DNA of 24,000 nt from positions 1-24,000 of the forward strand of contig DATDVL010000060.1 of NCBI GenBank assembly GCA_035290025.1, written 5' to 3'. Each line of letters begins with the position of its first letter. Positions within the stretch are counted from its first letter, which is position 1. This document shows positions 6,109 through 12,674 of the stretch, one piece after another. The DNA comes from Candidatus Nanoarchaeia archaeon. Its GTDB lineage: Archaea; Nanobdellota; Nanobdellia; SCGC-AAA011-G17; DATDVL01. Both the position numbers and the translations under genes were made by a program. The notes below the pieces were generated by a model. The model worked only from the letters and a program-made list of their open reading frames with translations. It did no database searches and was not told the DNA's origin.

Positions 6109-6265
6109 GGTAGACAAATAGTTGCGGAGGTTTGCTTATATAGTTTATTGTTACTTTTTCTGTAAGAAGTGTATCATTTTTTATTTTTAGAGTATACAAG
6201 AAAAGTGAGTAAGAAAGTTTTAAAAACGCTAATTTCTGGTGGTGATAAGGGGGTTTGCATAGATT

Positions 6266-7525
6266 ATGAGTTGGGTTAAGAGTACGTTTGAGAAGGTTCC
6301 TCAAGGGGAGAGAGTGGCTCTTGCTGAGAGGGCTTTGGATTTGTATACACAGATGCCTACGCCTTATTATGCAATTCCTAGTGGTATAGTTGTTCCTGAC
6401 GCTATTGATCGTTGGCCTTCCTCAGAAGTATTAGGCGAACGATGGTTGCAAGAAGATGAAATATTCAAGGATATAACAGATGTGTGTAGTGGTCTTCCTC
6501 CTGACTGGACGGCTTTGCAGGAAAGGGTTAAAAATAATAGGAGGCACATGCAGGTTTTAGCTGCTAGAAGTTCCTCTCGTCGTATGCGTCTCTCGTTGCA
6601 TAAGCTGCCTCCTTTTTTTGATGATTTTGATGGGAAAGTAAAAAAGTGGTATAATCTGCCAGAGTGTGTAAACGGTGCAGAGTATGTCGTTACAAAAGAA
6701 CATTTGGGTGAAGGTGGTTTCGGCACAGTGTACAAAGTACAAGCAGATGATGGTAGGGTGTATGCTTTGAAATTACTGCATCCTCGTCACGTTCTAACAG
6801 GGCATCAGCAAGATACGCATCATGATGCTGGTGATGTAATAAGAAAAGGATTGGTCCAACGTCAAGAATTATTCAGAAATGATTGGTTTGCTCGTCTGGA
6901 GTTTATAACGTGGAATAGGCATGATAGTTTCAGAGTAGCAGTCATGAAAGAGTTCGTTCCTGGTAAAACCGTTTATCAGGTATTGCGAAGTTTTGATGGT
7001 CCTGATAGTTTTACGCAAAGAATGGCTGCTGCTTATCGCATAGTTTTGCCCTATGCTCATTTTTTGCAGTGGATGCATCATCAGGGTTTGTTGTTTGTTG
7101 AGAATCGTTGGGATAATGTTATGAAGCATGGTGATACTATAAAAGTTATTGATTATGATTTTGTGACACCTATTGCTGAAATGGGTAATGCAGAGCATGA
7201 TTTTGTTCGATGTGTTTCTTCTCGCTCTTTTGCTTCACGACAACAAAGGCATGATACATTGCAACGCACGTTATTAAGTGATGTGGAGTGTTTTGCTTTA
7301 ATGCTTGATCAATGGTTTGTTGGTTATCCTTGGATCAGCGGTAAGGATTATGGAAATATGTTACGACATATGGATCAAGCAGCAGAAAATAAACGAGCCT
7401 ATCCAAGAGAGCGTATGCATGCTTTGCCGAAGCCGATAAGGCAAGTCGTGCATGATCTTCTTCGTTACCCGCAAGATGAATCGTTGACTATTGATGATGT
7501 GGTCAGTGCATTGGAGATGTTGTAA
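6266..7525 (+). CDS. Hanks-type protein kinase-like protein, paralog 1 (N-terminal unknown domain plus kinase-like domain)
   Basis: Motifs present: Gly-loop LGEGGFGTVYKV, VAIK-like VYALKL, catalytic-loop region FVENRWDNVM, KVIDYDF in place of DFG, and activation-segment SRSFASRQQ. Confidence 0.7.
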   Translation: MSWVKSTFEKVPQGERVALAERALDLYTQMPTPYYAIPSGIVVPDAIDRWPSSEVLGERWLQEDEIFKDITDVCSGLPPDWTALQERVKNNRRHMQVLAARSSSRRMRLSLHKLPPFFDDFDGKVKKWYNLPECVNGAEYVVTKEHLGEGGFGTVYKVQADDGRVYALKLLHPRHVLTGHQQDTHHDAGDVIRKGLVQRQELFRNDWFARLEFITWNRHDSFRVAVMKEFVPGKTVYQVLRSFDGPDSFTQRMAAAYRIVLPYAHFLQWMHHQGLLFVENRWDNVMKHGDTIKVIDYDFVTPIAEMGNAEHDFVRCVSSRSFASRQQRHDTLQRTLLSDVECFALMLDQWFVGYPWISGKDYGNMLRHMDQAAENKRAYPRERMHALPKPIRQVVHDLLRYPQDESLTIDDVVSALEML

Positions 7526-7527
7526 AC

Positions 7528-8811
7528 ATGCAGTATATTATCGATTGTCTTGAAGCAATGCCTACAGGTCAGCGTGTTGCTGAAGCGGAAAGTTTGTTTC
7601 ATGCATTTGCTGATGAGAAAGATTGGGAAAGTTCTTTTCCGTATGGTTTCTTGAGAATGGTTTCTGTTTTTAACATGCCAAGTAGGGACTATTGGGAACG
7701 TTTCGTTACAAGTGAAGAATCATTTTTTGGAAAATTACAAGCGTTGTGTGGTGGTTCTTTGCCGCAGGTGTGGTCTGATCATTATCAGCGTTGTTTAAGG
7801 AATAGAGAACATATGCTGGCATTACTAGAGAAGGTGCGAACGCGGGAAAGAACCCCTATGATACACGAAATTCCTCCGTTTATTGATAATTTTGAAGCTA
7901 AAGTAATAGACTGTTATGGTTTGTTCCACGATATCAACGGGTTGCCGATAAGAATTACAGAAGATCGTTTAGGGAGAGGTGGTTATTGCCATGTCTACAG
8001 AGCAAGCATAGGTGATGAAAAAGTAGCGTTGAAGTTGTCTATTCCTAGTCAATTAAAAACTTCATGGGCCTTAGAAGTAAATAACTTCCCGTTAGTATAT
8101 AGATCTATTAGGAAGAATTTGCAGGATCATAGTGGTTTGTTCCAACAGTCACCTTTTGCACGATTGTATCAGACAGTTGGTGGTAAGTATGATATGTATG
8201 CAATATTCATGGAACTAGTTGAGGGAACGGATATGTATACCTTAGTTTCAGAAAATGATAATAGTAACCTAGATGATAAGGTTGCCAAAACAGCTTTTTT
8301 AGTATATGCACAGATGTTATCAACATTGCATAACAAGAGTTTCGTGTTTGGTGATAATAAATTATCAGCAGTTATGATAAGAAATGAAGGAACTTGTTCG
8401 GTAGGTGATAGAACTATTATTCCTGAAGATGTAAGAGTTATTGATTATGACTTTGCTATGCCTCTAGAAGTAATGAACGCAGAGGAAAATAAGCATTTGT
8501 TGCGTATTGGGACCCCACAGTATAGTTCTCGAGAGCAGCGTTTGGCACATTTAACGAGGACGACGATGAGTGATTTGGAGGGTTTTGCTTTGATGTTGGA
8601 TCATTGGTATACAGGTTCTTTATGGAAAGAAGTTTTCAGGGATAATTTTCGTGCTGAAGAAGCTGATAGCATTAATAAGAGAGAATACCCTACCAATCGT
8701 CTCGCTTGTATTCCCGCTCCTCTACAACCTTTGATAAGGGGTGTTCTTGAATATCCGCAAGATGCGAAAATAACAAGTGGTGATTTTGTAACAGAACTGG
8801 AAAGGGTATAA
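7528..8811 (+). CDS. Hanks-type protein kinase-like protein, paralog 2
   Basis: It starts 2 nt after the paralog-1 stop and is collinear with it throughout. Motifs: LGRGGYCHVYRA, VALKLS, FVFGDNKLSAVM, RVIDYDF and GTPQYSSREQ (GTPxYxAPE-like). Confidence 0.7.
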   Translation: MQYIIDCLEAMPTGQRVAEAESLFHAFADEKDWESSFPYGFLRMVSVFNMPSRDYWERFVTSEESFFGKLQALCGGSLPQVWSDHYQRCLRNREHMLALLEKVRTRERTPMIHEIPPFIDNFEAKVIDCYGLFHDINGLPIRITEDRLGRGGYCHVYRASIGDEKVALKLSIPSQLKTSWALEVNNFPLVYRSIRKNLQDHSGLFQQSPFARLYQTVGGKYDMYAIFMELVEGTDMYTLVSENDNSNLDDKVAKTAFLVYAQMLSTLHNKSFVFGDNKLSAVMIRNEGTCSVGDRTIIPEDVRVIDYDFAMPLEVMNAEENKHLLRIGTPQYSSREQRLAHLTRTTMSDLEGFALMLDHWYTGSLWKEVFRDNFRAEEADSINKREYPTNRLACIPAPLQPLIRGVLEYPQDAKITSGDFVTELERV

Positions 8812-8859
8812 TACGCCACGGATGGGATTTGAACCCATACGTCCTTGCGGACACAGGAT

Positions 8860-8870
8860 GTTTACCTAGT
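8860..8870 (-). other. tRNA-Ser intron 2 (11 nt, canonical 37/38)
   Basis: Central helix UUGC/GUAA (one G.U), bulges UAA and ACA, 4-nt loop. The outer helix is the anticodon stem. Confidence 0.65.
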
Positions 8871-8878
8871 TAGCAATC

Positions 8879-8898
8879 TTACGCCATTTTTTAGATGT
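8879..8898 (-). other. tRNA-Ser intron 1 (20 nt, position 29/30, non-canonical)
   Basis: BHB drawn by hand: central helix GCGC/GCGU, 3-nt bulges AGA and AAG, inner helix CAU/AUG. Cutting after bulge nt 2 joins CAG|GA. Confidence 0.65.
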
Positions 8899-8929
8899 CT
8901 GCGCGCTACCAGGTTATGCGACCGTGGCT

Positions 8930-9538
8930 CTAATTTTTAAAAATCAAGAGGTATTTATTTAAATGTTTCGTATTAGAAGAACCGACTAATTTCATCCATT
9001 TTTTAATCATTTTAACACCATTTACACAAATTCTGTAAGTTTGGGTTCTCCTATCAACCCATTGATGAAAACGTAAGTCAAAAGTTGTGAGTAACAAAGA
9101 GACATCATTAATAAGTTTTAGTGAGGAACTGCCGATCTCAATTCGAGGATAATCAACTTTGTCAAACCGTAAACACCCATCAGTATCAAATAAACCACGT
9201 AGAAAATATTTAGAACTTACTGATGATTGTAGAATAACTTCAGGAATCCAAATAATATGACTCTTTTTACCAATAGGCATCTCGTTTTCTAGTAAAAATG
9301 ATGTTAGTCTTTTATCACAGGTCTGAACCCCAATACAACCATTTTTACCTCCGCTTCGATATTTCAAGATAAAGTCTCTTTTAAAAATTTTCTTTAGTAA
9401 CGGCAAAACGTGTAAGTGATAATAACCATATTCTTTTAGATCACCTCGAAGTTCCCAAACAAGTGTGCTATTTACTCTGTATAGAGTCCCATCTCCTACA
9501 TGCATCCCTAATAATTCAGCCTCAAACTTAGATACCAT
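8930..9538 (-). CDS. Free-standing double-motif LAGLIDADG homing endonuclease, paralog 1
   Basis: Motifs LLGMHVGDG and LRGLFDTDG both retain the catalytic Asp. The ORF is open to 9640, but ATG 9538 (MVSKFEAELLG) has a TATA-like ttatatta 24 nt upstream, and the longer form would overlap the rtcA start. GC was about 27-32% in two 60-nt hand counts. Confidence 0.8.
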   Translation of the reverse strand: MVSKFEAELLGMHVGDGTLYRVNSTLVWELRGDLKEYGYYHLHVLPLLKKIFKRDFILKYRSGGKNGCIGVQTCDKRLTSFLLENEMPIGKKSHIIWIPEVILQSSVSSKYFLRGLFDTDGCLRFDKVDYPRIEIGSSSLKLINDVSLLLTTFDLRFHQWVDRRTQTYRICVNGVKMIKKWMKLVGSSNTKHLNKYLLIFKN

Positions 9539-9608
9539 AATGGGTAGAAAGAGAAATTTCTTAATATAATCTTCGGAAGAAATATCGGAAAAATTCCGGA
9601 TAAAATGG

Positions 9609-9616
9609 TTTATAAA
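9609..9616 (+). promoter_or_regulatory. TATA box for rtcA
   Basis: tttataaa ends 23 nt before ATG 9639. Confidence 0.5.
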
Positions 9617-9638
9617 GATAATCCTTCTTAGAGTATGC

Positions 9639-10661
9639 ATGATTACAATTGATGGTACTAATGGTGGTGGTCAGGTGTTGCGTACTGCTTTATCGCTGTC
9701 TGCTATTACACAGCAGCCTTTTTTGCTGCAGAATATTCGTGGTGCTCGTCCGAAGCCAGGTATGGGTGCTCAACATGTGATGGCAGTGAAGGCAGCGAGT
9801 GATATCTGTCATGCTTCTGCGGAGGGTGCTAAGCGAGATAGTATGTCTTTGCGATTTATGCCGGGTAAGATTAAGGGTGGGTCGTTTTCTTGGGATATTG
9901 GTACTGCTGGTTCTACAACGTTGATTTTGCAGACGGTGCTCCCCATATTATTCTATGCTGATGGTCCTTCTAAAATAACCATCAGGGGTGGTACAGATAC
10001 AGAGCATGCGTTGCCGTCGTTGGATGCTCGTGATGTTTTTCTTGATGTGGTATGTCGTATGAATCTAGACGTTGATATGTCTATTGATAGTTTTGGTTTT
10101 TTTCCTAAAGGCCAGGGTCAGATTACTGCTACTATTGTTCCTAATAAAAGATTTTCTGGTGTGCATATATCTAATCGTGGTCTTCCTGAGCGTTTGCAGG
10201 TTACTGCTGTGGTGAGTAAGGATTTGCAGGGAAAGAAGGTTGCTGAGCGTATGGTGCAGGCGTTTATGGAGAAAGTAGTTTGGGTAAATAGTAAAGAAGT
10301 TAAGGAAGATTATGTTACGACTGCTGACACAGGTGGTTTTTTGCATGCACACACGCATTTTACGAATACAGTTTTAGGTGCAACAGTCTTGGCGGAGAAG
10401 AAAAAGTCTGCTGAGCATATTGGTTATGAGGTTGCTGCGTTGTTGAATCAAGAATTAGCGAGTGCTGCAACAGTTGATGGTTATACTGCTGATCAGTTGA
10501 TGGTATATTTTGCTTTGGCAGGTGATGGTAGTTGTAAGGTTCGTGAAATTACTGATCATATGCGTTCAAATGCTGCTGTTATTGAACAATTTTTGCCTGT
10601 CAAGTTCACTTTTGAGAATAATGAATTAAAAGTAAATACTATTAAAAGTGAAAGGGGTTAA
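9639..10661 (+). CDS. rtcA: RNA 3'-terminal phosphate cyclase
   Basis: The N-terminal signature is GGGQVLRTALSLSAITQQPF..NIRGARPKPGMGAQH, and the 340-aa length fits. Confidence 0.88.
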   Translation: MITIDGTNGGGQVLRTALSLSAITQQPFLLQNIRGARPKPGMGAQHVMAVKAASDICHASAEGAKRDSMSLRFMPGKIKGGSFSWDIGTAGSTTLILQTVLPILFYADGPSKITIRGGTDTEHALPSLDARDVFLDVVCRMNLDVDMSIDSFGFFPKGQGQITATIVPNKRFSGVHISNRGLPERLQVTAVVSKDLQGKKVAERMVQAFMEKVVWVNSKEVKEDYVTTADTGGFLHAHTHFTNTVLGATVLAEKKKSAEHIGYEVAALLNQELASAATVDGYTADQLMVYFALAGDGSCKVREITDHMRSNAAVIEQFLPVKFTFENNELKVNTIKSERG

Positions 10662-11310
10662 ACTTAGTAGTATAATCATAAGCGTCCACGCCTTCTGCTC
10701 GTTTTAGGAACTTTACAATTCGGTAAGTAAGTGGTGTTGCTATAATTTCATAAACAACCTTGAGGATATATCCAGAAAGGATTGCAGGTAATAACAAGTT
10801 ATTGGGAAAAACGCCGTAAAATGCTAATATTACAAAAACAGTACTGTCAATTCCTTCTCCCACGATGGTTGAGCCAATAGTTCTCATCCAAAGATGTCTT
10901 CCTTGAGTAAGAAGTTTCATTTTTGCGAGCACAAAGGAGTTTGAAAATTCTCCTAACCAGTAAGCGATGAGTGATGCTAGGGCTATACGAGGTACTAATC
11001 CTAGAATAGTATTATATGCTGTTTGATTCAGCCAGCCCATGGCGGGTGGTAATATACCAACAAGCCAGTAGACAAGTGACATAAGTAATAAAACAAAAAA
11101 TCCTGTCCAAATAATCTTTCTTGATTGTTTATAGCCATATACTTCAGTAAGAACATCTCCAAAAATGTAGGTTAAGGGAAAGACGATAATACCTCCAGAA
11201 ACAATGAATGGACCAATACTGATAAGTTTTGTTGCAACAGTGTTTGATAGCATGAGTAAGGCAACAAATAATGATGAAATAAAGGTGTAATATCTATAGG
11301 ATGACGACAT
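10642..11310 (-). CDS. yhhQ: VUT/DUF165 (YhhQ-like) queuosine/archaeosine-precursor transporter
   Basis: It carries the FPLTYIFGDVLTEVYGYKQSRKIIW motif and multiple TM segments, 222 aa. It overlaps the rtcA 3' end convergently by 20 nt. Confidence 0.8.
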   Translation of the reverse strand: MSSSYRYYTFISSLFVALLMLSNTVATKLISIGPFIVSGGIIVFPLTYIFGDVLTEVYGYKQSRKIIWTGFFVLLLMSLVYWLVGILPPAMGWLNQTAYNTILGLVPRIALASLIAYWLGEFSNSFVLAKMKLLTQGRHLWMRTIGSTIVGEGIDSTVFVILAFYGVFPNNLLLPAILSGYILKVVYEIIATPLTYRIVKFLKRAEGVDAYDYTTKFNPFHF

Positions 11311-11377
11311 AAAAAGTAGGTATAAAATTAGGTTTTATATAGTTTATTAAAAGTAAAAAAGAAATAAAAGGATGTTG

Positions 11378-11620
11378 TTACATCCCACAGCATTTTCTGC
11401 AATTCATGCCTTTCTTTTTGAAGACGTGTCCTGCGACTAAGAGTACCATACCTACTAAGTACCAGATATAGGTCATAAACCATGCTTCATTGCCTGTTTG
11501 CATTATCCATCCTTTAACTAAGAAGAATAGTGCTGCTGCGCAGAGTATGACGCCGATTAGTCCGCTTCCTAAGTTGCACGTACATTGTAGTTCTTCCATT
11601 CTGCTCATTGTTTTTGCCAT
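11378..11620 (-). CDS. Small Cys-rich membrane protein (80 aa)
   Basis: It has two hydrophobic helices and Cys clusters CTC and CRKCCGM at the termini. A strong SD, GGAGGTG (complement of 11630-11636), lies 9 nt upstream of ATG 11620, so the longer track start 11638 is unlikely. Confidence 0.55.
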   Translation of the reverse strand: MAKTMSRMEELQCTCNLGSGLIGVILCAAALFFLVKGWIMQTGNEAWFMTYIWYLVGMVLLVAGHVFKKKGMNCRKCCGM

Positions 11621-11723
11621 AAAGTATAACACCTCCAAAATGTGTTGGTTTTCTTAAGGAAAATTATATTAAAAAGCTTCTGGAGTACTCCGAGGGGGTA
11701 GTTTTTTGCCGATTCCATAAGGC

Positions 11724-11731
11724 TTTTAAAG
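11724..11731 (+). promoter_or_regulatory. TATA box for tRNAi-Met
   Basis: ttttaaag ends 22 nt before tRNA position 1 (11753). Confidence 0.45.
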
Positions 11732-11774
11732 AGTCTGGGGTACATTCATTGCAGCGAGGTAGAACAGCCAGGAG

Positions 11775-11792
11775 ACTTGTAAAAAGCCTGAA
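11775..11792 (+). other. tRNAi-Met intron A (18 nt, D-loop)
   Basis: BHB: outer helix AGC/GUU, bulge AAU, central helix CAGG/CCUG, bulge AGA, inner helix CUU/AAG. Boundaries are good to about 1 nt. Confidence 0.6.
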
Positions 11793-11800
11793 TGTTCGTC

Positions 11801-11823
11801 TCTGTCGTCAACGATGGCGAAAG
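11801..11823 (+). other. tRNAi-Met intron B (23 nt, position 28/29)
   Basis: BHB: central helix UUCG/CGAA, bulges UCU and AGG, and a 6-bp inner hairpin with UCAA loop. It joins UC|GGG. Confidence 0.65.
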
Positions 11824-11827
11824 GGGC

Positions 11828-12643
11828 TCATAGCTGTTGTGAGGCACCCGAATAATAGTCCTGCAAAGGATTCTTCGGGATGGTCGGAGGTTCAAATCCT
11901 TCCCTCGCTATCACTTTTAAGTAGTACTTATTTATCTTTTCTAAATGTTTCGGGCTTTGAAAGTTTAACGTTTCGCACCAATGGTTTAAATTTTCGAAAC
12001 CGGACATTTCTAAACGACTAATAATAGTATAACATTTCTTATTTCGTTTGTCCTTTACCCGATAGTTATAACGTGTAGCCACATTAAACCCAGCATTACG
12101 TAAATAATTAGTAACTTGGTTAATAAGGTAATCTTTTTTCGATGATAATGAAATAACAGGATAATAAGGATAATCCCTGTAACGTTTTTTAAAAGAGATA
12201 CATCCATCAGTGTCGAATAATCCTTGGATAAAATAAGGTATAAGGTCCGGTCTCTCTAAAATTACTAAAGGTATCTGAAGATAGTCATACTTTTTCCCTA
12301 TAGGTAATCCAATAACTTGAGTAAGATAAAGAAATAAGCTTTTTGAATATATTCTAAAACCATAAATAGTCCCTTTTTTATTCTTTTTAAAGAACTGCAT
12401 AGCTGGGCTAATTCCAAAAAGATTTTTGAGAAGTGATCTAATAATCAGGTCATAATAAGATTTCTCATCAATAGGATGCCCAGCACAATGAATAGAGTAT
12501 TCATGTTTATTTTTCCTGTAATGAATGCAGCCATCACCTGTTAAAACACCAATTAAGTAAGCAAGTTCGGGGGTTATAGTTAAAGGAAGAACTAAACCTT
12601 TAGAACGATCAAGTTTTGAAAGAGGAATGTTAAATTGAGTCAT
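11828..12643 (-). CDS. Free-standing double-motif LAGLIDADG homing endonuclease, paralog 2, with antisense read-through into tRNAi-Met
   Basis: Motifs LIGVLTGDG and IQGLFDTDG. It shares PIGKK, GLFDTDGC and a KHLxK..KY C-terminus with paralog 1. GC was about 33% in one 60-nt hand count. The last 27 codons are antisense to the tRNA gene. Confidence 0.8.
   Translation of the reverse strand: MTQFNIPLSKLDRSKGLVLPLTITPELAYLIGVLTGDGCIHYRKNKHEYSIHCAGHPIDEKSYYDLIIRSLLKNLFGISPAMQFFKKNKKGTIYGFRIYSKSLFLYLTQVIGLPIGKKYDYLQIPLVILERPDLIPYFIQGLFDTDGCISFKKRYRDYPYYPVISLSSKKDYLINQVTNYLRNAGFNVATRYNYRVKDKRNKKCYTIISRLEMSGFENLNHWCETLNFQSPKHLEKINKYYLKVIAREGFEPPTIPKNPLQDYYSGASQQL
11833..11845 (+). other. tRNAi-Met intron C (13 nt, canonical 37/38)
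   Basis: BHB: central helix CUCA/UGAG, bulges UAG and GCA. The outer helix is GGG/CCC of the anticodon stem. Confidence 0.7.
11853..11881 (+). other. tRNAi-Met intron D (29 nt, position 44/45)
   Basis: BHB: central helix CCCG/CGGG, bulges AAU and AUG, inner hairpin capped by a GCAA tetraloop. It yields the variable loop AGGUC. The register can slide by 1-2 nt. Confidence 0.55.
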
Positions 12644-12666
12644 ATCAAGTCAAAGAATAATTTTAA

Positions 12667-12674
12667 TTTATATA
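12667..12674 (-). promoter_or_regulatory. TATA box for LAGLIDADG paralog 2
   Basis: tttatata lies 24 nt from ATG 12643. Confidence 0.45.

What the first reader, a model, noticed from the sequence alone, without database searches (positions are those of the whole stretch)
8814..12674. Candidate system: tRNA-flanking LAGLIDADG endonucleases paired with hyper-fragmented tRNA genes
The window contains only two tRNA genes. Both are multiply interrupted by BHB introns (2 and 4), including non-canonical positions. Both have a paralogous, apparently active, AT-rich free-standing LAGLIDADG gene whose 3' end touches a tRNA terminus within 1-2 nt, in two different relative orientations. That co-occurrence is unlikely to be chance.

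Two non-exclusive readings:
- The endonucleases target tRNA gene sequences for homing or insertion, and the introns disrupt their recognition sites. This fits the published idea that breaking up archaeal tRNA genes protects them from integrating elements.
- The endonucleases mobilise the intron-bearing tRNA alleles, or the introns themselves, at the DNA level.

Between the two loci lie rtcA (which makes 2',3'-cyclic phosphate RNA ends, the chemistry of the archaeal splicing and ligation pathway) and a transporter for a tRNA-modification precursor. thiI, thrS and alaX are nearby, so the neighbourhood is strongly tRNA-themed. I know of no described association between free-standing LAGLIDADG genes and BHB-intron tRNA genes.
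Basis: inference. Interest (0 to 1): 0.8.

Follow-up and report, generated by a model that had tools for sequence, protein, structure and literature searches.

The report
tRNA-flanking homing endonuclease genes in DPANN archaea
Two selfish-type DNA-cutting enzyme genes in this tiny archaeal genome each sit flush against a transfer-RNA gene, and this pairing proves to be the rule for a large, undescribed family across related archaea, while the many introns in the two tRNA genes are probably a separate feature of these genomes.

Summary
The window has two tRNA genes, tRNA-Ser(GCU) with 2 BHB introns and initiator tRNA-Met with 4. Standard finders see them only after in-silico splicing. Each is abutted by the 3' end of a free-standing single-chain LAGLIDADG gene (32% identical paralogs, both catalytic Asp kept).

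In 160 related DPANN loci, 129 of 158 assessable homologues (82%) have an adjacent tRNA, 121 at the ORF's 3' end; about 2 are expected by chance. Each protein lineage tracks one tRNA and one geometry: LAG1 sits upstream of tRNA-Ser(GCU), and LAG2 converges on tRNAi-Met. Many ORFs take their stop codon from the tRNA.

In one clade the endonuclease plus tRNA-His block is 89-98% identical between genomes whose neighbouring hisS gene is saturated at synonymous sites. That indicates horizontal cassette replacement.

The proposed link to hyper-fragmentation is not general: 60% of adjacent tRNAs have introns against 48% of background tRNAs (p=0.17), and close cassettes differ in intron content. It stays suggestive only in the two clades present here. 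The "tRNA-themed neighbourhood" is not conserved.

Best reading: tRNA-gene-targeted free-standing homing endonuclease cassettes, a new variant of a known kind, with no prior description found.

The parts
8814..8928 (-). tRNA-Ser(GCU) gene, 115-nt precursor. Exons 8928-8899, 8878-8871 and 8859-8814. Discriminator G at 8814. No CCA is encoded.
   Evidence: T-arm and acceptor detected. ARAGORN calls the spliced 84-nt product as tRNA-Ser(gct) but does not call the precursor.
8879..8898 (-). BHB intron 1 of tRNA-Ser, 20 nt, non-canonical position 29/30 in the anticodon stem.
   Evidence: Central helix GCGC:GCGT, 3-nt bulges, inner helix of 3 bp. An orthologous intron occupies the same site in most LAG1-clade loci.
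8860..8870 (-). BHB intron 2 of tRNA-Ser, 11 nt, canonical position 37/38.
   Evidence: Central helix TTGC:GTAA, 3-nt bulges.
8930..9538 (-). LAG1, a free-standing single-chain LAGLIDADG endonuclease gene (202 aa from M35; the maximal ORF runs to 9640). The stop codon TAG at 8930-8932 lies 1 nt upstream of the tRNA-Ser 5' end on the same strand. The last codons (KHLNKY) spell TTTAAATAAATA 27-38 nt upstream of the tRNA.
   Evidence: Pfam LAGLIDADG_3. The 202-aa gene call appears on the source contigs. Orthologues at 43-55% identity sit upstream of tRNA-Ser(GCU) in other genomes.
11753..11910 (+). Initiator tRNA-Met(CAU) gene, 158-nt precursor. Exons 11753-11774, 11793-11800, 11824-11832, 11846-11852 and 11882-11910.
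   Evidence: A1:U72 and G29-31:C39-41. ARAGORN calls the spliced 75-nt product as tRNA-Met(cat).
11775..11792 (+). BHB intron 1 of tRNAi-Met, 18 nt, in the D-loop (about 20/21).
   Evidence: Central helix CAGG:CCTG, outer helix 3 bp, inner helix 3 bp.
11801..11823 (+). BHB intron 2 of tRNAi-Met, 23 nt, anticodon stem (28/29). The boundary is ambiguous by 1 nt.
   Evidence: Central helix TTCG:CGAA, inner helix 7 bp.
11833..11845 (+). BHB intron 3 of tRNAi-Met, 13 nt, canonical position 37/38.
   Evidence: Central helix CTCA:TGAG, outer helix 3 bp.
11853..11881 (+). BHB intron 4 of tRNAi-Met, 29 nt, variable loop (44/45).
   Evidence: Central helix CCCG:CGGG. Splicing restores the variable-loop sequence AGGTC. 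Introns at the same site occur in L012, L016 and L022.
11828..12643 (-). LAG2, a free-standing single-chain LAGLIDADG endonuclease gene (271-aa ORF). The homologous body spans 11911-12643. The last 27 codons (11828-11910) are an antisense read-through of the tRNAi-Met 3' exon and intron 4, because there is no stop codon at the tRNA boundary.
   Evidence: Pfam LAGLIDADG_3 and LAGLIDADG_1. AlphaFold2 model pLDDT 94, with best PDB matches I-Tsp061I, PI-PfuI and I-DmoI. Orthologues converge on tRNAi-Met in about 20 genomes.

Best explanation
LAG1 and LAG2 belong to two lineages of a large, DPANN-specific family of free-standing, single-chain (I-DmoI/I-Tsp061I-like) LAGLIDADG homing endonuclease genes. 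The genomic niche of this family is the immediate flank of a tRNA gene. Each lineage is tied to one tRNA gene and one geometry: LAG1 lies just upstream of tRNA-Ser(GCU) on the same strand, and LAG2 converges on the 3' end of initiator tRNA-Met.

Proposed mechanism (inferred). The enzyme recognises a long DNA site that lies in, or straddles the end of, its cognate tRNA gene. tRNA genes are the most conserved short sequences shared by diverged genomes. The enzyme cuts alleles that lack the endonuclease gene, and recombinational repair copies the endonuclease gene together with the adjoining tRNA allele. The unit of inheritance is therefore an endonuclease-plus-tRNA cassette.

Why the gene sits flush against the tRNA. 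This placement does not harm the tRNA. With the strong deletion bias of these genomes, the ORF has lost its own stop codon and spacer. It ends in tRNA-derived sequence, and in same-strand cases it may carry the tRNA's TATA box in its last codons.

History. Some cassettes have recently replaced resident alleles horizontally (His clade). Others, including the LAG2/tRNAi-Met locus of this window, have been resident and under purifying selection for a long time.

Introns. The many BHB introns in the two tRNA genes are mainly a general trait of these lineages. They ride along with the cassette and are not an obligatory component of it.

What is shown and what is inferred. Shown: the anatomy, the family-wide association, the concordance between lineage and tRNA, the nuclease fold with conserved catalytic residues, and horizontal sharing of the block in one clade. 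Inferred: DNA cleavage activity, the location of the target in the tRNA gene, and the homing mechanism.
For: Association. 129 of 158 assessable family members have an adjacent tRNA, 121 of them at the ORF 3' end, against about 2 expected. Rfam independently finds an abutting tRNA in 14 of 20 loci that my detector missed. There are no tRNAs near 69 distant viral relatives.

Specificity. The nearest protein relative (below 90% identity) is next to the same tRNA type and anticodon in 58 of 89 cases, against 7% expected at random, and has the same geometry in 77 of 89. LAG2-clade genes converge on tRNAi-Met in about 20 genomes. LAG1-clade genes lie upstream of tRNA-Ser(GCU).

Nuclease character. 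Both LAGLIDADG motifs and their Asp residues are invariant or nearly so in alignments A1 and A2 and across 161 copies. The AlphaFold2 model has pLDDT 94 and its top structural matches are active archaeal homing endonucleases. dN/dS is about 0.1.

Selfish-element signatures. GC content is lower than in neighbouring genes. Six copies are pseudogenised. Empty sites exist (L019 for LAG1; L107, L109 and L111 for LAG2). Some genomes carry several paralogs.

Mobility. Between L036 and L046 identity is about 0.3 to the left of the cassette. It is 0.79-0.98 across the 5' region, the endonuclease gene and pre-tRNA-His. It falls to 0.60-0.66 exactly after the tRNA 3' end, in hisS. Endonuclease pS is 0.31 against 0.79-0.86 for flanking genes. 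L046/L049, L036/L049 and L076/L077 show the same trend.

Junctions. ORFs end in tRNA-derived stop codons: tRNA nucleotides 13-15, the antisense T-loop TGA, or the antisense terminal CTA.

Closest precedent. T4 SegB is a free-standing endonuclease gene inserted between tRNA genes that targets the tRNA region (PMC2988022).
Against: No cleavage activity or target site has been demonstrated, so the claim that the target lies in the tRNA gene is inferred from position only.

In the LAG2/tRNAi-Met clade, the one present in the window, synonymous sites are as saturated as in the flanking rnhB and smc genes. Protein divergence (45-53% identity) is like that of housekeeping genes, and the order smc-rnhB-LAG2-tRNAi-Met recurs. 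This fits long vertical residence and is equally compatible with a domesticated host function.

All 11 contigs carrying this locus have both genes, so no presence/absence polymorphism was seen.

In the transferred His cassette the left flank is non-homologous between genomes. Simple two-sided homologous repair does not explain that.

The strong bias for the ORF's C-terminus to face the tRNA (121 of 129) is not predicted by homing alone.

The loci were chosen as the best 80 matches to each window protein, so the 82% figure describes these clades and not all LAGLIDADG_3 genes.
Confidence: 0.6

Rival explanations
1. Collaborative homing with introns as immunity. The endonuclease cuts the intronless form of the neighbouring tRNA gene at or near an intron insertion site. 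The BHB intron(s) split that site and protect the carrier allele. Endonuclease and intron then spread together as a two-part element.
For: All 22 solved LAG2-adjacent tRNAi-Met genes have an intron within a 10-bp zone (53/54 in 15 loci; about 44/45 in the window, L012, L016 and L022). Three tRNAi-Met genes without LAG2 have none there, and two of them have no introns at all, with exons identical to the spliced exons.

LAG1-adjacent tRNA-Ser(GCU) genes carry introns at 29/30, with or without 37/38, only 8 nt apart. The two intronless exceptions (L028, L110) have altered anticodon stems. The syntenic LAG1-empty site L019 is intronless with the canonical sequence.

In L036/L046 the intron-bearing tRNA-His allele lies inside the horizontally shared block, with 37 of 39 intron positions identical.

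The mechanism is known for phage group I introns (PMC2988022).
Against: Family-wide there is no significant excess of introns: 60% against 48% (p=0.17), and for two or more introns 29% against 17% (p=0.12). 51 of 129 adjacent tRNAs have no intron.

Cassettes with 83-84% identical endonucleases differ in intron presence (L036 and L046 against L049).

Asn(GUU) genes without a LAGLIDADG neighbour have introns, while several with one do not.

The tRNAi-Met and Ser patterns rest on very few endonuclease-free comparators, some from GC-richer lineages, so shared ancestry can explain them.

The window's other introns (D-loop, 28/29 and 37/38 in tRNAi-Met) are not explained.
Confidence: 0.22
2. Domesticated LAGLIDADG proteins with a host function at their cognate tRNA gene. 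Examples would be a sequence-specific DNA-binding regulator of that tRNA gene, or a maturase-like factor that helps the heavily interrupted pre-tRNA fold for splicing. Such genes would be inherited vertically.
For: The LAG2/tRNAi-Met locus is syntenic (smc-rnhB-LAG2-tRNAi-Met) in many Woesearchaeota, and LAG2 diverges like housekeeping genes, with dN equal to or below that of rnhB and smc.

There is strong purifying selection.

Each lineage is faithful to one tRNA.

LAGLIDADG maturases (bI3, I-AniI) are among the structural matches.

The His clade has an extra N-terminal region of about 130 aa that looks like a helix-turn-helix domain.
Against: Both catalytic Asp residues are retained almost universally, unlike in known domesticated LAGLIDADG proteins (own knowledge).

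Pseudogenised copies and empty sites exist.

About 40% of partner tRNAs have no intron, so a splicing-helper role cannot be general.

The His cassette has been transferred horizontally.

GC content is lower than in surrounding genes.
Confidence: 0.14
3. Chance adjacency in a very compact genome, or remnants of another kind of element (a tRNA-targeting integrase element with att duplications, or ORFs that really lie inside tRNA introns or between split tRNA halves).
For: Intergenic spacers are tiny throughout the window. Examples are the overlaps at 7525/7528 and 9640/9639, and the kinase stop codon 2 nt from tRNA-Ser.
Against: 121 adjacent tRNAs were observed against about 2 expected.

The window contains no duplicated tRNA fragments, no flanking direct or inverted repeats, and no integrase or transposase.

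Acceptor halves flank the ORF in only 2 of 55 tested loci, and both hits are spurious.

Both window tRNAs are complete on one side of the ORF.
Confidence: 0.02

Closest known systems
Phage T4 SegB (free-standing GIY-YIG homing endonuclease in the tRNA gene cluster)
   Same: It is a free-standing endonuclease gene inserted between tRNA genes. Its target is in the tRNA region, and it promotes preferential inheritance of the adjoining tRNA genes (PMC2988022, Table 1 and reference 38). This is the same logic as an endonuclease-plus-tRNA cassette.
   Different: SegB belongs to a different nuclease family (GIY-YIG, not LAGLIDADG). It is a phage gene, not a cellular archaeal one, and a single gene, not a radiated family with one lineage per tRNA. 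It does not share a stop codon with a tRNA, and BHB introns are not involved.
Archaeal intron- and intein-encoded LAGLIDADG endonucleases (I-DmoI, I-Tsp061I, PI-PfuI)
   Same: These are the best sequence and structure matches. They share the single-chain two-motif fold and the conserved catalytic acidic residues. They also come from archaeal hosts that use BHB splicing.
   Different: Those enzymes are encoded inside rRNA BHB introns or inteins and home to the intron or intein insertion site. The proteins here are free-standing, lie outside the tRNA and are not within any intron. They are about 20% identical to the solved enzymes.
Collaborative or trans homing (F-CphI with the psbA intron; T4 mobE with I-TevIII)
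   Same: A free-standing endonuclease gene lies next to a gene that carries an ORF-less intron, and the intron could interrupt the target site (PMC2988022). The tRNAi-Met and Ser(GCU) clades fit this picture.
   Different: Those introns are self-splicing group I introns in phage protein genes, whereas these are protein-spliced BHB introns in cellular tRNA genes. The coupling between intron and endonuclease is not general in this family.
The Randau and Söll hypothesis that tRNA gene disruption protects against integrating elements
   Same: The idea is that introns break up the conserved tRNA gene sequences that mobile elements use (as summarised in PMC4090602).
   Different: The hypothesis was proposed for integrase-mediated viral or plasmid integration at att sites, not for homing endonucleases. 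Here the mobile gene is present alongside the introns and is not excluded by them, and intron load is not significantly higher next to the endonuclease genes.

Membership tests
LAGLIDADG homing endonucleases (single-chain, two-motif) | Two LAGLIDADG motifs, each with a catalytic acidic residue at its C-terminal end | tested here: met
   LAG1 has GMHVGDG and GLFDTDG; LAG2 has GVLTGDG and GLFDTDG. In alignments A1 and A2 the motif-1 G-D-G, and in A2 the motif-2 D-T-D-G, are fully invariant; in A1 the first Asp and last Gly of motif 2 are at least 90% conserved.
LAGLIDADG homing endonucleases (single-chain, two-motif) | Pseudo-dimeric alpha-beta-beta-alpha-beta-beta-alpha fold with a DNA-binding beta saddle | tested here: met
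   AlphaFold2 pLDDT 94.1, pTM 0.92. Foldseek probability 1.00 to I-Tsp061I, PI-PfuI, I-AniI, I-DmoI and I-SceI. HMM hits to PI-PfuI and I-DmoI at E 3e-11 to 6e-10.
LAGLIDADG homing endonucleases (single-chain, two-motif) | Site-specific double-strand DNA cleavage of a 14-40 bp target | not testable with these tools
   Requires a biochemical assay. Only conservation of the catalytic residues and dN/dS of about 0.1 speak for activity.
LAGLIDADG homing endonucleases (single-chain, two-motif) | Mobility: horizontal spread into the same site in endonuclease-free genomes (homing) | tested here: inconclusive
   Met in the His clade, where the endonuclease-plus-tRNA block has pS 0.31 against 0.79-0.86 for flanking genes and sharp boundaries. 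Not seen in the LAG2/tRNAi-Met clade, where saturation equals that of the flanks. Empty sites and pseudogenes exist.
Archaeal BHB (bulge-helix-bulge) tRNA introns | A 4-bp central helix flanked by two 3-nt bulges that carry the splice sites, with at least one outer helix | tested here: met
   All six window introns have 4 of 4 paired central helices at the exact boundaries. Four introns have an outer or inner helix of at least 3 bp; the canonical tRNA-Ser intron and the tRNAi-Met variable-loop intron have at most 2 bp.
Archaeal BHB (bulge-helix-bulge) tRNA introns | Removal restores a canonical cloverleaf with the identity elements intact | tested here: met
   ARAGORN calls tRNA-Ser(gct) (84 nt, long variable arm, G73) and tRNA-Met(cat) (75 nt, A1:U72, three G:C pairs) only after splicing.
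Archaeal BHB (bulge-helix-bulge) tRNA introns | Excision by the splicing endonuclease EndA; non-canonical sites need a broad-specificity type | not tested
   No EndA gene lies in the window. RNA data would be needed.
Collaborative homing pair (free-standing endonuclease plus ORF-less intron at its target) | The endonuclease gene lies adjacent to the intron-bearing gene | tested here: met
   True at both window loci and in many related loci.
Collaborative homing pair (free-standing endonuclease plus ORF-less intron at its target) | Presence of the endonuclease and of the intron at a specific site co-vary across genomes | tested here: inconclusive
   Holds for tRNAi-Met (22 of 22 against 0 of 3) and largely for Ser(GCU). 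Fails family-wide (p=0.17) and within the His clade.
Collaborative homing pair (free-standing endonuclease plus ORF-less intron at its target) | The enzyme cuts the intronless allele at the intron insertion site, and the intron confers immunity | not testable with these tools
   Needs cleavage assays on intronless and native alleles.
tRNA-targeting integrative elements (integrase with att sites) | An integrase gene and a duplicated tRNA fragment bounding the insert | tested here: not met
   The window has no tRNA fragment repeats of 11 nt or more apart from the shared T-loop, no repeats flanking the ORFs, and no integrase domain in neighbouring ORFs.

The most novel reading that the evidence does not exclude
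Endonuclease-plus-tRNA cassettes act as a DNA-level vehicle that spreads BHB-intron-bearing tRNA alleles between DPANN genomes. The enzyme cuts the resident (intronless or differently interrupted) tRNA gene, and repair installs the donor allele with its introns. Introns that split the recognition site are then favoured as immunity: 53/54 or 44/45 in tRNAi-Met, and 29/30 with 37/38 in tRNA-Ser(GCU). This would give protein-spliced archaeal tRNA introns, which have no mobility machinery of their own, a trans-acting drive. It would help explain the intron proliferation seen in these lineages.
Probability: 0.2. Interest if true: 0.88.

Novelty: new variant of a known kind. Interest (0 to 1): 0.7.

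Why it matters
Free-standing homing endonucleases are well studied in phages but are hardly described in cellular archaea. This finding shows a large family (more than 4,000 clusters at the 50% identity level score E ≤ 1e-10 against the family profile) whose members have partitioned the tRNA gene set among themselves in DPANN archaea.

If the enzymes do recognise tRNA gene DNA, several things follow:
- They explain a recurrent and previously unannotated feature of these genomes.
- They provide a ready-made panel of natural meganucleases, each with a different conserved target.
- They make the origin and spread of non-canonical archaeal tRNA introns directly testable, through cleavage assays on intronless and intron-bearing alleles.
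- They show that essential tRNA genes, including the initiator tRNA, can be replaced horizontally as part of a selfish cassette.

There is also a practical point. Standard tRNA finders miss both tRNAs in this window, one of which is an initiator tRNA, so completeness estimates for such genomes are affected.

Tried and rejected
1. ARAGORN and Rfam on the raw window found no tRNA. I replaced them with an end-based detector plus BHB enumeration.

2. My first strict detector under-called adjacent tRNAs. It missed those with T-arm introns and many intronless ones, which biased the early intron statistics (70% against 50%, p=0.04). After merging direct ARAGORN calls the difference vanished (60% against 48%, p=0.17).

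3. The BHB solver is lenient. It still "solved" 35 of 100 Met precursors and 4 of 200 Ser precursors with shuffled introns. It also mistyped several multi-intron tRNAs (L008, L095). Intron counts and identities for multi-intron genes in the survey are therefore approximate.

4. ORF inside a large tRNA intron, or between split tRNA halves: rejected.

5. Integrase or att element, and flanking repeats: rejected.

6. Group I intron context: there is no Rfam hit in the window, and the archaeal group I introns found by Nawrocki et al. 2018 are all in rRNA genes (PMC6125680).

7. Conserved "tRNA-themed" operon with rtcA, yhhQ, thiI, thrS and alaX: rejected.

8. Viral carriage of the family: only relatives at 22-34% identity, with no tRNAs nearby.

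9. Exact-sequence lookup of the 236-aa LAG1 ORF found nothing because gene callers use the M35 start.

10. Intron position biased towards the endonuclease-proximal end: seen only for the tRNAi-Met clade T-arm intron, not for same-strand loci.

11. Fold-back repair as the origin of the intron-loop/trailer inverted repeat: considered but not supported, because only the loop of the intron hairpin is complementary.

Full report
**What is in the window**

Standard tools see no tRNA here (ARAGORN; Rfam gathering threshold). Reading the sequence shows a T-arm plus acceptor on the minus strand at 8814-8928 and on the plus strand at 11753-11910. An end-based detector (T-loop, T-stem and a 3' acceptor strand paired to an upstream 5' acceptor strand followed by U8) finds exactly these two sites in 24 kb and nothing else.

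I scanned the precursors for bulge-helix-bulge geometry: exon positions x-5 to x-2 paired to intron positions n-5 to n-2, flanked by 3-nt bulges. I then spliced them in silico.
- The first product is an 84-nt tRNA-Ser(GCU), with introns of 20 nt at 29/30 and 11 nt at 37/38.
- The second is a 75-nt tRNA-Met(CAU) with the archaeal initiator hallmarks A1:U72 and G29-31:C39-41. Its introns are 18 nt in the D-loop, 23 nt at 28/29, 13 nt at 37/38 and 29 nt at 44/45.

ARAGORN calls the spliced products but not the precursors. All six introns have a fully paired 4-bp central helix at exactly the boundaries needed to restore the cloverleaf.

**The two ORFs**

ORF 8930-9640 (minus strand; gene callers use M35, giving 8930-9538 and 202 aa) and ORF 11828-12643 (minus strand, 271 aa) are both Pfam LAGLIDADG_3. 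They are 32% identical and have lower GC content than their neighbours. Both keep the acidic residue in both motifs.

An AlphaFold2 model of LAG2 is confident (pLDDT 94). Its best matches are I-Tsp061I, PI-PfuI, an intein-associated endonuclease, I-AniI and I-DmoI.

LAG1 stops (TAG, 8930-8932) 1 nt before the tRNA-Ser 5' end on the same strand. LAG2 converges on tRNAi-Met. Its homologous body ends at the tRNA 3' end, but there is no stop codon there, and the ORF runs 83 nt antisense through the tRNA (tail ...IAREGFEPPT...). So "touches within 1-2 nt" is right for LAG1 and only approximately right for LAG2.

**Is the pairing chance?**

The contig comes from a Rifle aquifer metagenome, and the closest named homologues are from Woesearchaeota and Nanoarchaeota. 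The first hint came from homologue C-termini such as GEGFEP and NSGERI*, which are antisense translations of a tRNA 3' end.

I fetched 80 loci from species-representative genomes with a LAG2-family alignment (463 relatives confirmed) and 80 metagenome loci with a LAG1-family alignment. I called tRNAs with three methods: the end-based BHB pipeline, direct ARAGORN, and a dedicated initiator-tRNA solver.
- Of 165 LAGLIDADG genes, 7 lie at contig ends.
- Of the other 158, 129 (82%) have an adjacent tRNA.
- 86 lie upstream of the tRNA 5' end on the same strand, 35 converge on the 3' end, 6 lie downstream on the same strand and 2 are divergent.
- The rest of the same loci hold 46 tRNAs in 906 kb, so about 2 adjacent cases are expected.

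Rfam independently found an abutting tRNA in 14 of 20 loci that my pipeline had scored as negative, so 82% is a lower bound. Sixty-nine distant viral LAGLIDADG relatives (22-34% identity) have no tRNA within 233 kb. The association is real and specific to this family.

**Each lineage has its own tRNA**

Close LAG2 relatives (42-55% identity) converge on tRNAi-Met in about 20 genomes. Close LAG1 relatives (43-55%) lie immediately upstream of tRNA-Ser(GCU). Other clades go with His(GUG), Arg(GCG), Arg(UCG), Asn(GUU), Ile(GAU), Phe, Gln and Leu(CAA).

The nearest protein relative below 90% identity is next to the same tRNA type and anticodon in 58 of 89 cases, against 7% expected at random. It shares the geometry in 77 of 89. 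Most discordant cases are multi-intron tRNAs that my solver mistyped.

**The junctions**

Overlap lengths recur. Same-strand ORFs often stop at tRNA nucleotides 13-15. Convergent ORFs stop in the antisense T-loop (TGA) or at the antisense terminal CTA. His-clade ORFs have no stop codon of their own, and some read through the entire tRNA.

When the N-terminus faces the tRNA there is a spacer of 48-131 nt. I read the flush junction as deletional compaction acting on a true adjacency.

In same-strand loci the last 45-15 nt of the ORF carry TATA-like octamers as often as genuine tRNA upstream regions: 27% against 30% score at least 7 of 8. The figures are 14% for convergent ORF ends and 11% for random ORF segments. 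In the window the KHLNKY codons spell TTTAAATAAATA 27-38 nt upstream of tRNA-Ser. This is weak support for a tRNA promoter embedded in the ORF tail.

**Are the introns part of it?**

Not in general. Adjacent tRNAs have at least one intron in 78 of 129 cases (60%) against 22 of 46 (48%) for other tRNAs in the same loci (Fisher p=0.17). For two or more introns the figures are 29% against 17% (p=0.12). An earlier apparent enrichment (p=0.04) came from a detector that missed intronless genes.

Cassettes with 83-84% identical endonucleases carry tRNA-His with (L036, L046) or without (L049) a 39-nt canonical intron. Asn(GUU) genes without an endonuclease neighbour have introns, while several with one do not.

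The two clades present in the window do show a pattern.
- All 22 solved LAG2-adjacent tRNAi-Met genes have an intron at 53/54 (15 loci) or about 44/45 (the window, L012, L016, L022). Three tRNAi-Met genes without LAG2 (L107, L109, L111) have none there, and two have no introns at all, with exons equal to the spliced exons.
- LAG1-adjacent tRNA-Ser(GCU) genes have the 29/30 intron, with or without 37/38. The exceptions are L028 and L110, whose anticodon stems differ.
- L019 is syntenic with the window (LAG2, tRNAi-Met, rtcA, tRNA-Ser) but lacks LAG1. Its tRNA-Ser is intronless with the canonical sequence.

This is what intron-mediated immunity would predict. However, the comparators are few and partly from other lineages, so shared ancestry is an adequate alternative explanation.

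**Mobile or resident?**

Both occur.

In the LAG2/tRNAi-Met clade the order smc-rnhB-LAG2-tRNAi-Met recurs. LAG2 identity (45-53%) falls between that of rnhB (49-61%) and smc (41-44%). Synonymous sites are saturated like those of the flanking genes, and dN is equal to or lower than theirs. That indicates long vertical residence under purifying selection.

In the His clade, L036 and L046 are unalignable to the left of the cassette (identity about 0.3). Across the cassette they are 0.79 identical in a 5' region of about 210 nt, 0.89 in the endonuclease gene and 0.98 in the intron-bearing pre-tRNA-His. Identity drops to 0.60-0.66 right after the tRNA 3' end, in the adjacent histidyl-tRNA synthetase gene. 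Endonuclease pS is 0.31 (dS 0.40, dN 0.04), against 0.79-0.86 for the flanking genes. L046/L049, L036/L049 and L076/L077 show the same direction.

A selfish-type gene that is much less diverged at synonymous sites than a neighbouring aminoacyl-tRNA synthetase gene points to recent horizontal replacement of the endonuclease-plus-tRNA block. Pseudogenised copies (six) and empty sites complete the picture of a homing-endonuclease life cycle.

**Rivals excluded**

- The ORFs are not inside tRNA introns or between split halves.
- There are no att-like tRNA fragment duplications, flanking repeats or integrases in the window.
- There is no group I intron signal.
- The rtcA, yhhQ, thiI, thrS and alaX neighbourhood is not conserved next to homologues (0-2 of 80 loci). 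In L019 rtcA sits next to tRNA-Ser without LAG1, so that linkage is independent of the endonuclease.

**Comparison with what is known**

By fold, motifs and sequence the proteins are members of the single-chain LAGLIDADG endonucleases and are nearest to archaeal intron- and intein-encoded enzymes. They are nevertheless free-standing.

The closest functional precedent is T4 SegB, a free-standing GIY-YIG endonuclease gene inserted between tRNA genes that drives inheritance of the tRNA region (PMC2988022).

Full-text searches found no description of LAGLIDADG genes paired with tRNA genes in archaea. All 39 archaeal group I introns found by Nawrocki et al. 2018, 21 of which encode a LAGLIDADG ORF, are in rRNA genes (PMC6125680).

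A family profile search counts 4,142 clusters at the 50% identity level with E ≤ 1e-10, and 803 with E ≤ 1e-30.

**Verdict**

The window shows two examples of a widespread DPANN family of free-standing LAGLIDADG endonuclease genes that live flush against specific tRNA genes. They most likely use the tRNA gene as their homing target and travel as endonuclease-plus-tRNA cassettes.

The proposed functional coupling to hyper-fragmented tRNAs is not a general property. It remains an open, testable possibility for the tRNAi-Met and Ser(GCU) lineages.

**Limits**

- No biochemical data are available.
- Intron counts for multi-intron genes are approximate, because the solver is lenient.
- The background tRNA sample is small (46).
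- The loci were selected by similarity to the two window proteins.
- I applied no phylogenetic correction.

Noticed in passing
L005, L007, L009, L020, L103 (tRNAi-Met T-arm intron and the first ~15 nt after the tRNA 3' end); The hairpin loop of the 53/54 intron is complementary to the tRNA 3' trailer, which is the antisense of the last LAGLIDADG codons. The differences co-vary: ATTGGGAAGG/CCTTCCCAAT, TGGGAAAG/CTTTCCCA, GGAAGGG/CCCTTCC, TGGAAGGA/TCCTTCCA and GGAAAGA/TCTTTCC. Five of 14 loci have a Watson-Crick run of at least 7 bp, against 6.5-9% in shuffled and cross-locus controls. The feature is absent in the other loci and I did not find it in the window. It could be a pre-tRNA intron-trailer pairing or a structure at the 3' end of the mRNA. 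It remains unexplained.
   Followed up: partly
L036 3440-4795, L046, L049 (and L034, L043, L056, L059): His-clade proteins carry an extra N-terminal region of about 130 aa that looks like a helix-turn-helix domain and has no Pfam hit. Upstream there is a conserved region of about 210 nt containing a hairpin (CTTC-AGGA-GAGTG-TTCAT-CACTC-GAAG) and a TTTATAAA box 25-32 nt before the ATG. The ORFs have no stop codon of their own and read into, or right through, the sense strand of tRNA-His.
   Followed up: partly
L036 4674-5977, L046, L049: tRNA-His lies immediately upstream of the histidyl-tRNA synthetase gene, so the order is endonuclease, tRNA-His, hisS. The high-identity block ends exactly at the boundary between the tRNA and hisS.
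   Followed up: partly
window 8933-8975 and 9539-9640: The conserved C-terminal motif PKHL(N/E)K(Y/I) of the family is encoded in LAG1 by AAACATTTAAATAAATA. This places a TATA-like box 27-38 nt upstream of tRNA-Ser. The maximal LAG1 ORF overlaps the rtcA start head-to-head (9639/9640). The likely real start is M35 (9538), with TTATATTAA about 25-33 nt upstream, which suggests a leaderless mRNA.
   Followed up: partly
window 6266-7525 and 7528-8811: Two tandem paralogous genes of about 420 aa carry eukaryotic-type Ser/Thr protein kinase domains (Pfam Pkinase) and are separated by 2 nt. The second ends 2 nt from the tRNA-Ser 3' end. They were not found near LAGLIDADG homologues elsewhere.
   Followed up: no
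L019 6172-6599: This is a syntenic empty site for LAG1. rtcA (minus strand) is followed by an unrelated 84-aa ORF (6250-6504) and then an intronless tRNA-Ser(GCU) whose sequence equals the spliced exons of intron-bearing alleles. It would be a useful natural substrate for cleavage tests.
   Followed up: partly
L023, L029, L039, L097, L161, L162: These LAGLIDADG copies have internal stop codons or frameshifts and still sit beside their tRNA. They are degenerating copies, as expected in a homing-endonuclease life cycle.
   Followed up: no
window 8814-8928 and 11753-11910; L015, L024: Standard tRNA finders miss both window tRNAs, including the initiator tRNA found here. Some related tRNAi-Met genes appear to have 4-5 introns, including one inside the T-loop. 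tRNA-based completeness estimates for these genomes will be too low.
   Followed up: partly
L028 56-2990; L026; L103: As in the window, several other contigs carry both a LAG2/tRNAi-Met pair and a LAG1/tRNA-Ser(GCU) pair within a few kb. The two tRNA genes are therefore themselves loosely linked in these genomes.
   Followed up: no
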